Below, in pieces: positions 18,001 to 21,000 of a stretch of DNA of 64,000 nucleotides. The position numbers were made by a program. Every line of letters begins with the position of its first letter. The first letter of the stretch is position 1. Source of the stretch: Trypanosoma brucei. Its lineage: Eukaryota. The DNA is taken from NCBI GenBank assembly GCA_000002445.1, contig CP000071.1:2080001-2144000 (forward strand), read 5' to 3'.

Positions 18001-21000
18001 AAATGGACGTACAAGCAAAAAGATGTTATCGCGTATAAGCCTTAAAAAACTATGACCTCGGAATAAAGCAAAGAGTCATGGGTTTTAGAGCCCAGCTTTC
18101 ATTCAAAGTAACGTGCTGTACAAAAAAGGAATAAAAAAACAACGACCACCAAATATGGTCGGTATGGATCCATTGTTTTGGTTACTCTGTGGCTCAGTCG
18201 ATTTCATATCCACTGCTTTTTCAGTTTTAGTCTGTGGTCCCTTAATGGTCGGCTTCTCTTGGCCAACTTTTTCGGTCACATTATCTGATGTTTCGGTCGC
18301 GGGCTTCTCTTTGGGTTTCTCTTTAGATTCCTTCTCAGTACTTGCTCGTGCTGGTGCTGATACGGTAGCAGTTCTCTGGCTCTCATGGTTTGATTCACCC
18401 ACATTAATATCTGGGAGGTTGCTGCAGTCGGGGCCGGCCTCGCGATGTGCCTCCTCCTCCTTTTTGATAATTTGATCGACGCGATCGTGGGTGCACAGGT
18501 AATGGGTCGTTCTTCCACCTGTTGTAAAACGCAAAGGACATGAGTTTCCAACGGCTACCAACCTCACCTCTTCCGAGCCCAGTTTGCAGTGTCTTGATAA
18601 CGAATCTCCTACATACTTCGCCAACTTCTTACAAACAGCCCTGTGTACTCCATCCTTTCTGCACACTTCGTCAGTAGGCCACTGAAGTTCTATTTCGACG
18701 AAATCCGGTCCAAGGGCGAGGTTTGAACGGGCCGAAAACACACACAGGAATAGCAGCACTCTCCTCATTTTACACCTACGGCAGGAACAAAGAAAAGATA
18801 CGAGAAGAAAATCAATGCTCTAGTTTACACAACTTACCAAAAAAAATAACATACCCTGCACAGCAACGTACATGATGTTTCGCTAGCACTACAACCTCCC
18901 AAGTCTGCAAATACCCGCCTGTTGTGCACACGTGGAAGAAGCAGACCACAAAAAAAAACCGTTTGATTGCTAACCTTCCGTGACGGTTGAACAACAAAAC
19001 CACCATGTCCCCTGAGAAAATAGTGGGGTGCACCCTCCCTACATTTTATTATAGTGCAGTTTCAGCGTGGAAAACATGAGCATAAAACACAACCCCGGAA
19101 CAAGATTAGACGTTCTTAACCAAAAGCAAACTTACACCTTCCAACATCATAACTAAATTAAACAAGGTGAATCACACCGACCGTATAAGATAATGATTAA
19201 ATTGCAAGAAACGTCAGTGAAAGAATCTGTGTGCGCGTACTGCACCTTCATTACTAAGAACAAGGCAGATGGAGGGATTGAAATGCTTTCTTTCAATTTT
19301 ATCGCCACCGTTATTTTCATTATTTTGAAAGTGCAGATGGCGTGCGTAGTAGAATGTGTTAGGTTGTATCGTTTGAGCTAAGTCAACGTCCGTGATAGGG
19401 ACACACTCATTCAAAATAACCAGTCCTGACGTTCTGCTTTTTCTGTTACAGGATAAAGAGGGTGCACTCTCATTGCACAAAATCCAAAATCATCCACCCT
19501 TCGGATAGCTTCCATCATCACAAAATATCCCTCAAGCATTTTCCACCCTTCCTATCAAGACTAAAATATTGCGGAAGTGAATTTAATCGCTTTCAATTCT
19601 AGTTTGATTTAGTGAAGTGCTCCAAGCGTTCCAGTTAACAGCATCACAATATTTGTACCAAAAGCAAATGCTCCCATTATGTGTGCTTGAATATTTCCTC
19701 CCTACAATCATATATTATTGTGTCCCCCTACCCCCAGCACCGGATTGATTATTATTTCCGGTATCTTTTCCGTATTATTTTTGCTACCCCTATTTTTCAC
19801 ATCCCCGATTTTTCCATCCCTTTTTACATCCTTTTCTTTTACCATTATTGGTCAGCTTGATCCCATTGGAATAAATACGTGTGTTACAAATCATACTCAG
19901 CCCCTCCTAACACCCCCTGTTGGAAATAATTCTTCGAGGTCGCCTTCCAACTTCTCAATGGCACTCTTCAGCTCTCTTCCCTCTACATTGTCCTCACTTG
20001 AATCACCCATTAACGTCGCAATTTCCCGCAATTCACCCAACCAAGGTATGTCCTCAACCATCCCAGCCCTGGTGTTTATAATGTAATGCACACCCGGGCC
20101 AGGTACGTACCCCGACAGGAACTCGAGCGGCCAAAAGAGTTGCTTTTTGTGTTTTCCCAAAACGTACATAGTCCCGCTGCAACCATCGACACGGTGGTTC
20201 AGGCTGCGACGAAATTTTTCCACCAGCTTAGCAAACCCTTCTTTGTGCCCCTCCACATTTGAACACTGGGACACAAGGAAATTCCACCTCTTCTGGGCAT
20301 CATTTCTTGGTCTCCACACTCTACGATTTTCACCAGAAACGCAATTTTCACAGCAAAGTTTGGTTTTCCTTCTTGACTTTCTGTCTGTTGCGCACAGACA
20401 CAGTAAATCCCTGCTCAGTGACACGGGCCCCTGATTCACTTCGGGTTGTGAAACATCTTCCTCACATACACGCTTTCTGGTTGCACTTCTTTCCCTCATT
20501 TTTTTCGGCTGATGTGGTATACCATAAAGGGCGCGATTCAGCATTTGCTTTATTATATCCCCGTTCAACACCCAGTGTCTCTTCGTCATATTCCCATATA
20601 TCGTTTCGGCAGCGGATGCTACTTGCTTTACCTTCTCCAGTTTCTCATCATCCAAACTTTCTTTGCCTGCATTTCCCTCGCTCATCGACAGTTTTGCTGC
20701 ATCCCAAAACACCTTGGAGTATTCACAGCTTTCGTCATTGTTGTCAATACAGGTATTGTTTAATTTCACGTCTCCAGCCAACTCAAGACATCTTGATCCA
20801 ATCTTCGTCAATGACTTGTTGACTTCCTGGGCTTCTTCTACCCTTTGCAATGCACCTTTCGCGAAATTAATCATACCACATAGGGCTCCAAATTCATCTT
20901 CATTGACAATTTTTCCCTCCCCGGAGATACTTGTTCGGAGCACCAAGGCAAACAAAACGACGCAATATTTAATACCACACATTTTTCCTGCTTTTCACTT

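What the first reader, a model, noticed from the sequence alone, without database searches (positions are those of the whole stretch)
18103..18768. Localized hypervariable N-domain inside an otherwise near-identical tandem repeat (copy 2 at 21996-22679)
The two small GPI-anchored proteins share a virtually identical C-terminal 88 aa (stalk plus GPI signal, 3 substitutions). Their N-terminal ~130-aa 6-Cys domains are only ~40 percent identical: copy 1 reads MRRVLLFLCVFSARSNLALGPDFVEIELQWPTDEVCRK..., copy 2 reads MMGKVLLFLCVFSTCSMLSAGEDLVEVTVLVPYGVPCRDRH.... The Cys framework is conserved. The DNA divergence starts abruptly right after gatacggtagcag (18367 and 22263). It then continues through the 5' flank. 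This pattern is characteristic of segmental gene conversion from a distant paralog, or of diversifying selection on an exposed domain. It is not uniform decay. It marks this protein as a probable variable surface antigen or ligand-binding protein.
Basis: seen in the sequence. Interest (0 to 1): 0.6.

Follow-up and report, generated by a model that had tools for sequence, protein, structure and literature searches.

The report
Mosaic tandem surface-protein genes, Trypanosoma brucei
Two neighbouring Trypanosoma brucei genes for small, probably GPI-anchored bloodstream-stage proteins have old, very different head domains, while the rest of each 3.9-kb repeat was recently made almost identical by gene conversion; this is a real but ordinary pattern for trypanosome tandem gene arrays.

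Summary
The window is T. brucei TREU927 chromosome 8. The two ORFs are Tb927.8.7310 and Tb927.8.7330, and each sits upstream of a VSG-related gene (VR13/VR14).

- **The break.** The units are 98.9% identical over 3,188 bp (15184-18371 vs 19079-22264). Identity then falls within one codon to 52% nt / 35% aa across the N-domain. The 5' flanks are only weakly alignable.
- **Cause.** Synonymous divergence is about 1.29 in the N-domain and 0.034 in the C-terminal part of the same gene. dN/dS is 0.36-0.62. This is a recombination mosaic, not diversifying selection.
- **Polarity.** The "5' flank + signal peptide + N-domain" modules are ancient paralogous lineages. The remaining 3.2 kb was recently homogenised, and that tract stops at both ends where homology runs out. 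No donor for either N-domain was found.
- **Independent support.** A chr8-type conversion tract sits in the chromosome 11 paralogue of another strain.
- **The protein.** The family is an orphan restricted to the T. brucei group, with three genes in TREU927. It is always paired with an anchor-less VR gene, is up-regulated in bloodstream forms, and is absent from some strains. Function is unknown.

Interest is modest.

The parts
18103..18768 (-). Copy 1 CDS = Tb927.8.7310 (221 aa): signal peptide aa 1-20 (18709-18768), 6-Cys N-domain aa 21-133 (18370-18708), K/E/P/T-rich stalk plus hydrophobic GPI-signal-like tail aa 134-221 (18106-18369), stop 18103-18105
21996..22679 (-). Copy 2 CDS = Tb927.8.7330 (227 aa): signal peptide 22617-22679, N-domain aa 22-139 (22263-22616), stalk plus GPI-signal-like tail aa 140-227 (21999-22262). 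The TTG at 22697 lies upstream of the polyY/AG acceptor and is not the start
15184..18371 (-). Conserved block, unit 1 (3,188 bp): C-terminal 88 codons of copy 1, its 3'UTR/intergenic region, VR13 gene and VR 3' flank. 98.9% identical to 19079-22264 (33 substitutions and one 2-nt indel)
19079..22264 (-). Conserved block, unit 2: partner of 15184-18371
18372..19078 (-). Variable module 1 (707 bp): 5' flank, splice acceptor, signal peptide and N-domain of copy 1. It fills exactly the gap between the two conserved blocks
22265..22826 (-). Variable module 2 (562 bp): proximal 5' flank 'X' (22680-22826), signal peptide and N-domain of copy 2
16002..17087 (-). VSG-related gene Tb927.8.7300 (VR13/14 pair; 361 aa; Pfam VSG_B E = 2e-68; signal peptide but no hydrophobic C-terminus)
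19897..20982 (-). VSG-related gene Tb927.8.7320 (361 aa; 5 aa different from Tb927.8.7300)
15030..15195 (-). Relic of a third, copy-2-type unit: 91% identical to 22664-22826 (5' flank X plus the first 16 nt of the CDS). It is joined to the VR 3' flank through the 12-mer AGCATAAAACAC, which occurs only at 15184, 19079 and 22815

Best explanation
**The locus.** It is a two-unit tandem array, plus the relic of a third unit, at the distal end of a short minus-strand polycistron that ends at a convergent strand-switch region of T. brucei chromosome 8. Each unit holds a gene for a small secreted protein, probably GPI-anchored, followed by an anchor-less VSG-related gene. The small protein has a signal peptide, a roughly 113-aa six-cysteine head, a roughly 65-aa disordered charged stalk and a hydrophobic tail.

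**The mosaic.**
- The two "5' flank + signal peptide + head domain" modules are ancient paralogous lineages: dS is above 1 and the flanks are almost unalignable.
- Everything else in the unit (stalk, GPI signal, 3'UTR, intergenic region, VR gene, VR 3' flank; 3,188 bp) was recently homogenised between the units by gene conversion or unequal crossing-over, leaving 1.1% divergence.
- The tract stops at both ends exactly where usable homology ends: N1 vs N2 on one side, and copy-1 5' flank vs relic X' on the other.
- Once diverged, the head modules are refractory to homology-dependent recombination and stay different, while the shared block keeps being overwritten.

**What is shown and what is inferred.**
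- Shown: the breakpoints, the synonymous and non-coding divergence contrast, the discordance with the chromosome 11 paralogue, and an independent conversion tract in the same block.
- Inferred: the polarity, the GPI anchoring and the surface location.
- Unknown: function. The best guess is a bloodstream-stage surface or flagellar-pocket protein that acts together with the adjacent VR protein.
For: 1. The break is sharp at 18371/18372. The 3,188-bp block carries only 33 substitutions and one 2-nt indel, spread over coding and non-coding DNA.
2. Within one gene, dS is 1.29 (pS 0.62) in the head and 0.034 in the tail. dN/dS is 0.50 and 0.29 (Fisher p = 1e-13).
3. The 5' flanks of copy 1, copy 2 and the chr11 gene align only weakly (z = 3-5 against shuffles). 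The whole module is therefore old, not just the protein.
4. Distances are discordant. In the head, copy 1 vs copy 2 (dS 1.29) is as far as or farther than copy 2 vs chr11 (0.84-0.91). In the block, copy 1 vs copy 2 differ by 1.1%, against 6-7% (92.6-93.9% identity) for chr8 vs chr11.
5. The tail is not intrinsically constrained. Between chr8 and chr11 it is only 74% identical in protein, so the 98% identity within chr8 reflects recency.
6. Conversion in this block is seen directly. In T. b. equiperdum IVM-t1 the chr11 gene carries chr8-type bases at all 18 sites that separate it from the OVI chr11-type sequence. These sites are confined to about 220 nt (GPI signal plus 3'UTR) and flanked by paralogue-fixed sites (permutation p < 1e-5). 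The TREU927 chr11 protein has a different chr8-like patch, SDNVTEK..KG.
7. The same boundary (ATVSAP) limits chr8-chr11 similarity. That similarity runs on to codon ~35 of the VR gene and then drops to 45% aa.
8. No donor for either head was found. There are only four protein clusters in 5.8 billion sequences, nothing further in an exhaustive HMM search, and no extra copy in the window or fetched loci.
9. Partial and ectopic gene conversion, often spanning UTRs, was reported in 21 of 47 T. brucei tandem arrays (PMC1855330).
10. Expression: 7310, 7330 and Tb11.02.1565 are 3.1x, 3.7x and 4.8x higher in cultured bloodstream than procyclic forms, as are VR13/14 (3.7x) and VR27 (8x) (PMC2771046 Additional file 4).
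Against: - Polarity is inferred from parsimony, not demonstrated. I could not search whole T. brucei genomes, including subtelomeres and unannotated fragments, so a lost or unannotated N1 donor cannot be excluded.
- dS above 1 is near saturation, and it rests on an alignment at 35% aa identity.
- With three paralogues and no outgroup, the discordance rests on distance ratios rather than on rooted trees.
- X and its relic X' differ by 9%, an intermediate age. This requires at least a two-step history that I can only sketch.
- The array is documented in a single strain, TREU927. The T. equiperdum OVI scaffold is broken by an N gap exactly in the repeat.
- Signal peptide and GPI anchor were judged only by hydropathy and sequence pattern.
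Confidence: 0.68

Rival explanations
1. Reader's polarity. A recent tandem duplication produced two identical units. The 707-bp '5' flank + head' of copy 1 was then overwritten by gene conversion from a distant paralogue elsewhere in the genome.
For: - The abrupt break and the elevated dS fit this polarity equally well.
- Copy 2's 5' flank X has a 91% relic downstream of unit 1. Copy 1's module is therefore the odd one out in the array.
- Ectopic conversion does occur in this family.
Against: - No N1-like donor exists in any annotated proteome or in the fetched loci.
- The replaced segment would have to begin exactly at the unit junction (19078/19079) and end exactly at the domain boundary.
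- Conversion needs flanking homology, which the weakly alignable 5' flank does not supply.
Confidence: 0.17
2. Diversifying (immune-driven) selection on an exposed head domain of two recently duplicated genes produced the divergence, with no recombination involved.
For: - The diverged part is the predicted exposed domain, and the family is expressed in the bloodstream stage.
- The chr11 orthologue is a strain-polymorphism hot spot: 55 mismatches per 800 nt against 52 per 3,988 nt in the flank.
Against: - Synonymous sites are as diverged as replacement sites: dS 1.29, omega 0.5; all pairs 0.36-0.62.
- The non-coding 5' flank is diverged to near randomness.
- The break is a step, not a gradient.
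- In the closest pair (OVI vs IVM chr11 head) omega is 0.36.
Confidence: 0.05
3. Different functional constraint. The whole unit is an old duplicate, and the 3.2-kb block is simply conserved by purifying selection while the head is free to drift.
For: The block contains regulatory 3'UTR/intergenic sequence and the VR gene, which could be constrained. RIT-seq reportedly shows that the VRs matter for bloodstream-form growth (PMC4288722).
Against: - The block is 98.9% identical at synonymous and intergenic sites alike.
- The same tail region is only 74% identical in protein and 84-85% in DNA against chr11, so it tolerates change.
Confidence: 0.03

Closest known systems
Partial (allelic and ectopic) gene conversion / concerted evolution in T. 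brucei tandem gene arrays (Jackson 2007, PMC1855330)
   Same: Chimaeric tandem copies occur. Conversion tracts span CDS ends, UTRs and intergenic DNA. There is ectopic exchange with a locus on another chromosome, and surface-protein arrays keep diverged segments.
   Different: This two-unit array is not named in that paper. The contrast is extreme (1% vs about 48% nt divergence). The tract covers a second gene, the VR, in full.
VSG gene architecture: hypervariable N-terminal domain with conserved C-terminal/GPI-signal/3'UTR region serving as downstream homology for gene conversion (my own knowledge of the VSG literature)
   Same: The head is variable. The tail plus 3'UTR is shared between copies and acts as the recombining homology. 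The protein is probably GPI-anchored and expressed in the bloodstream stage.
   Different: - There is no sequence or Pfam relationship between the small protein and VSG domains.
- The family has three genes and no silent archive.
- No 70-bp repeats were noticed in the stretches read; this was not searched systematically.
- The genes lie in a chromosome-internal polycistron rather than an expression site.
ESAG6/ESAG7 transferrin receptor: VSG-like heterodimer with one GPI-anchored and one anchor-less subunit (functional analogy only)
   Same: An anchor-less VSG-fold protein (VR13/14/27) is always encoded next to a putatively GPI-anchored partner. Both are co-regulated in bloodstream forms.
   Different: The small protein is not VSG-like. 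No interaction has been shown. Two very different heads sit next to nearly identical VRs, which argues against tight co-evolution.
T. brucei-specific surface-phylome families Fam4-7 and VR genes (Fam9) at strand-switch regions (Jackson 2013, PMC3605285)
   Same: These are species-restricted hypothetical proteins with a signal peptide, with or without a GPI signal. They are tandemly arrayed next to strand-switch regions and expressed preferentially in bloodstream forms.
   Different: The gene IDs are not found in the one supplement of that paper that is held as text. Membership of any Fam was not established.

Membership tests
Gene-conversion / recombination mosaic | Abrupt change in divergence that also affects synonymous and non-coding sites | tested here: met
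   dS is 1.29 vs 0.034 within one gene. The block is 98.9% identical including intergenic DNA. The step falls at 18371/18372.
Gene-conversion / recombination mosaic | Discordant relationships between segments relative to a third paralogue | tested here: met
   In the head, copy 1 vs copy 2 is at least as distant as copy 2 vs chr11. In the block, copy 1 vs copy 2 is about 6 times closer than chr8 vs chr11.
   There are only four protein clusters worldwide. No further HMM hits were real, and no extra copy lies in the window or fetched loci. Whole-genome DNA was not searchable.
Diversifying (positive) selection | dN/dS above 1 in the variable domain | tested here: not met
   Pairwise NG86 omega is 0.36-0.62 in the head, including 0.36 for the unsaturated OVI/IVM pair. 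Site-wise or population tests were not possible.
GPI-anchored surface protein | Cleavable N-terminal signal peptide, and a C-terminal small-residue omega region followed by a spacer and a hydrophobic tail | tested here: inconclusive
   The hydrophobic N-terminal core has mean KD 2.1-2.5. The C-terminus reads NNGS-IPTIFGGR-CFFIPFLYSTLL, with mean KD 1.1-1.3 over the last 14 aa. SignalP, PredGPI and experiment were not available.
VSG / VSG-related family (for the small protein) | Match to VSG N- or C-terminal domain models | tested here: not met
   No Pfam hit even at E <= 10. Only the neighbouring 361-aa gene matches VSG_B.
Plasmodium-type 6-Cys (s48/45) domain | Match to the s48/45 model or fold | tested here: not met
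Antigenic-variation gene family | Large silent archive with mutually exclusive expression from a dedicated site | tested here: not met
   TREU927 has three genes, in chromosome-internal polycistrons on chr8 and chr11.

The most novel reading that the evidence does not exclude
The small GPI-anchored protein is the membrane-anchoring partner of the adjacent anchor-less VSG-related protein. Together they would form a two-gene receptor cassette analogous to ESAG6/ESAG7. In it, anciently diverged head modules (N1, N2, N-chr11) would be kept as alternative specificities, while gene conversion keeps the stalk, anchor, regulatory block and VR uniform. The strain-to-strain presence/absence and allelic divergence would then reflect host-range or immune pressure.
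Probability: 0.1. Interest if true: 0.7.

Novelty: new member of a known kind. Interest (0 to 1): 0.3.

Why it matters
This is a clean, well-bounded example of how homology-limited gene conversion partitions a trypanosome surface-gene array into homogenised and persistently divergent modules. It also flags an uncharacterised orphan family restricted to the T. brucei group. That family is always paired with anchor-less VSG-related genes, is up-regulated in bloodstream forms and varies between strains, so it could be relevant to host-parasite interaction. It does not reveal a new mechanism. Partial and ectopic conversion in T. brucei arrays is established, and the locus and its tandem repeat are already annotated and were noted in the T. 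evansi genome paper.

Tried and rejected
- **Pfam.** Searches at E <= 0.1 and E <= 10 on all four small proteins gave nothing.
- **PDB sequence profile.** Only noise, E > 0.5.
- **Exhaustive HMM search.** A search of 1.84 billion representatives with the head-domain profile found only the chr11 paralogue plus two spurious repeat proteins, one bacterial repeat protein and one ankyrin.
- **AlphaFold2.**
  - Head alone: pLDDT 41, unusable.
  - Full-length copy 2: the head reached pLDDT about 80-90 in one of five models only, and the tail was disordered.
  - The afdb50 library was unavailable.
- **Exact-product look-ups.** Those for Tb927.8.7310, Tb927.8.7330, Tb11.02.1565 and VR13 returned nothing. 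The TREU927 chr11 DNA therefore could not be fetched, and the IVM-t1 chr11 locus (L002) was used instead.
- **T. equiperdum OVI scaffold (L001).** It looked at first like a chr8 orthologue with a third head type. It contains a 72-N gap exactly in the shared block, and it joins chr11-like and chr8-like halves. I treat it as a probable mis-join.
- **5'-flank comparison.** A first semi-global comparison was uninformative and was redone as a local alignment with shuffles.
- **VR homologue search.** At E <= 1e-10 it returned only the VR13/14 and VR27 clusters. I could not test whether VR genes in general are paired with small GPI proteins.
- **Published datasets.** The gene IDs are absent from the held supplements of the surface-proteome paper and of the cell-surface phylome paper.
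- **tRNA scan.** None found.
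Full report
**Identity of the region.** The ORF at 18103-18768(-) is 100% identical to Tb927.8.7310. The ORF at 21996-22679(-) is Tb927.8.7330 of Trypanosoma brucei brucei TREU927, chromosome 8. Each is followed on the minus strand by a 361-aa ORF (16002-17087 and 19897-20982). 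These ORFs match Pfam VSG_B at E = 2e-68. They are the VSG-related genes Tb927.8.7300 and Tb927.8.7320, listed together as VR13 and VR14. Upstream in the same minus-strand gene cluster lie two 748-aa trans-sialidase genes. Plus-strand genes resume below about 12.8 kb and above about 35.8 kb. The array therefore sits at the distal end of a short polycistron that ends at a convergent strand-switch region. This matches the published description of VR genes (PMC2771046).

**The observation.** Self-BLAST shows 15184-18371 and 19079-22264 to be 98.9% identical over 3,188 bp. A global alignment of the two units in 50-nt windows gives 0.94-1.00 identity across almost all of this block (0.84 in the terminal window). 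Identity steps down to 0.42-0.58 immediately 5' of 18371/22264, right after CTGCTACCGTATC.

- The block carries 33 substitutions and one 2-nt indel, spread over coding and non-coding sequence.
- In the mature head domain (113 aligned codons) the copies are 52.5% identical in DNA and 35.4% in protein.
- They are nevertheless clearly homologous: BLASTP E = 2e-25, with six invariant cysteines in all family members.
- The C-terminal 88 residues differ at two positions, not three.
- The contrast is highly significant: Fisher p = 3e-146 for all sites and 1e-13 for synonymous sites.
- Upstream of the ATG, about 70 nt holding a polypyrimidine tract and an AG acceptor keep 60-74% identity. Identity then falls to background. 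Local alignment against shuffles shows only weak residual homology between the 5' flanks of copy 1, copy 2 and the chr11 gene (z = 3-5).

**What made the pattern.** Nei-Gojobori estimates give dS = 1.29 and dN = 0.65 for the head. For the tail of the same gene they give dS = 0.034 and dN = 0.010. Selection on amino acids cannot raise synonymous divergence about 40-fold, nor erase the non-coding 5' flank. Pairwise omega in the head is 0.36-0.62 for all pairs. Diversifying selection is therefore not the cause, and the two segments have different ages.

The tail is not intrinsically constrained either. Against the chr11 paralogue it is only 74% identical in protein.

A third family member supplies the reference. 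The chr11 locus of T. b. equiperdum IVM-t1 (L002) carries a small gene at 10001-10675 and VR27 at 11694-12764.

- In the head, copy 1 vs copy 2 (dS 1.29) is at least as distant as copy 2 vs chr11 (0.84-0.91).
- In the block, copy 1 vs copy 2 differ by 1.1%, whereas chr8 vs chr11 differ by 6-7% (92.6-93.9% identity).
- These distance relationships are discordant, which is the signature of recombination.

**Polarity.** The near-identical block ends on one side at the head/stalk boundary. On the other side it ends at 15184/19079. There, unit 2 continues into the 5' flank of copy 1. Unit 1 continues instead into a 166-bp relic (15030-15195). The relic is 91% identical to the 5' flank and first 16 nt of copy 2. 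The 12-mer AGCATAAAACAC marks these junctions and occurs only three times in the window.

Both ends of the block thus coincide with the points where the two units lose alignable homology. This is what homology-dependent conversion of the block predicts. Under the reverse polarity, a 707-bp import would have to start exactly at the unit junction, without flanking homology.

No donor for either head exists. A word-indexed search of 5.8 billion proteins found only four clusters: 7310, 7330, the chr11 gene and a T. equiperdum OVI gene. An exhaustive profile search of 1.84 billion representatives added only two spurious hits. tblastn found no further copy in the window or fetched loci.

I therefore favour ancient head modules plus recent homogenisation of the remainder (confidence about 0.68). 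Import of N1 from a lost or unannotated donor is the main rival (about 0.17).

**Independent evidence that this block converts.** I made a four-way alignment from the stalk to the intergenic region. It shows 18 sites at which the OVI chr11-type sequence differs from the other three. All 18 lie within about 220 nt spanning the GPI signal and 3'UTR. At all of them the IVM-t1 chr11 gene carries the chr8 base, while paralogue-fixed sites flank the tract (permutation p < 1e-5). The TREU927 chr11 protein keeps the OVI-type GPI signal, so the IVM-t1 state is the converted one. The TREU927 chr11 protein carries a different chr8-like patch in the stalk.

The chr8-chr11 similarity starts at the same ATVSAP boundary. 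It runs through the intergenic region to about codon 35 of the VR gene. After that, VR13 and VR27 are only 45% identical. The family therefore consists of a shared central block flanked by two diverged ectodomain-coding modules. Partial and ectopic gene conversion of this kind, often spanning UTRs, was described for 21 of 47 T. brucei tandem arrays (PMC1855330).

**What the protein is.**
- Each member has a hydrophobic N-terminal leader and a head of about 113 aa with six conserved Cys.
- This is followed by a K/E/P/T-rich segment of about 65 aa and a C-terminal NNGS-IPTIFGGR-CFFIPFLYSTLL tail. The tail is compatible with a GPI signal, on a hydropathy heuristic only.
- AlphaFold2 gave a confident head (pLDDT about 80-90, mixed alpha/beta) in one of five models. 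The stalk was disordered. The head alone was not predictable.
- The family appears restricted to the T. brucei group.
- Microarray data show 7310, 7330 and Tb11.02.1565 at 3.1x, 3.7x and 4.8x higher in cultured bloodstream than procyclic forms. They move together with VR13/14 (3.7x), VR27 (8x) and the neighbouring LRRP (PMC2771046 Additional file 4).
- Tb927.8.7300-7330 are absent from T. evansi STIB805 and, per TriTrypDB, from T. b. gambiense DAL972. The VRs were reported as important for bloodstream-form growth (PMC4288722).
- VR13/14 and VR27 have signal peptides but no hydrophobic C-terminus.
- The small-gene/VR pairing is kept on both chromosomes.
- This suggests, but does not show, that the small protein could tether the VR protein, as ESAG6 does for ESAG7. 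Against tight co-evolution, two very different heads accompany nearly identical VRs.

**Verdict.** It is a conversion mosaic, but most likely the conserved part was converted. The data give no support to diversifying selection or to a "variable antigen". The phenomenon is a known kind in trypanosome arrays, and the locus is already annotated and was noted as a tandem repeat. Interest is modest (0.3). The only potentially exciting reading, a two-gene VR receptor cassette with alternative heads, is untested (probability about 0.1).

Noticed in passing
window 26761-29470 and 29480-32189: A second tandem duplication (98.1% over 2.7 kb) carries two 748-aa trans-sialidase genes (Pfam BNR_3 plus TS_C). 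They lie upstream in the same minus-strand polycistron. No internal identity break is seen.
   Followed up: partly
window 4392-5186 (within ORF 2839-6039, + strand): A 24-nt unit is repeated 33 times in frame (96% matches) inside a 1,066-aa ORF, with strong GC and AT skew. By its position upstream of Tb927.8.7300 this is probably Tb927.8.7260, annotated 'kinetoplast-associated', which carries an internal deletion in T. evansi.
   Followed up: partly
L001 4983-5054 (T. equiperdum OVI scaffold CZPT02000251.1): A 72-N gap lies exactly inside the shared intergenic block. The left half (LRRP plus small gene) is chr11-like, 97.6% identical to L002. The right half (VR plus RCC1/EMP24/ERGIC genes) is chr8, 99.1% identical to the window. 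This is either a mis-scaffold or a real chr8/chr11 recombinant. The OVI proteome has only one small gene and only a VR13-type VR.
   Followed up: partly
L001 3957-4788 vs L002 10001-10830: The chr11 small gene is a strain-polymorphism hot spot: 55 mismatches per 800 nt in the gene and proximal 3'UTR, against 52 per 3,988 nt upstream (p = 7e-17). In the head, dS is 0.19 and omega 0.36, with differences clustered in codons 28-67 and 93-114. This suggests old alleles or short-patch conversion from unknown donors.
   Followed up: partly
window 15030-15195; 12-mers at 15184, 19079, 22815: This is a relic of a third small-gene start (5' flank plus 16 nt of CDS, 91% identical to copy 2), fused to the VR 3' flank at a 12-nt microhomology found only three times in the window. 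It points to an older, larger array that was later truncated.
   Followed up: yes
L001 5055-7329 vs window 15184-17459 / 19079-21355: The single VR unit in the OVI scaffold is a patchwork of unit-1-type and unit-2-type variants in alternating runs. It also has a cluster of private differences at 17252-17402. This fits recurrent exchange between units, or a collapsed assembly.
   Followed up: no
window 16002-17087 vs L002 11694-12764: VR13 and VR27 are almost identical over the first 35 codons (signal peptide and start of the mature protein; one difference in the first 34) and then only 45% identical overall. This is the same step-like mosaic as in the small gene, on the other side of the shared block.
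   Followed up: partly
PMC2771046 Additional file 3 (expression cluster 8); PMC3605285 Table S1: Other 'T. brucei-specific hypothetical' genes have IDs adjacent to those of VR genes (e.g. Tb927.1.5180 beside VR Tb927.1.5170). They fall in the same bloodstream-up expression cluster. Fam6 (Tb927.3.5700; signal peptide and GPI predicted) lies near VR Tb927.3.5680. VR genes may commonly be paired with small secreted or GPI-anchored orphan genes.
   Followed up: no
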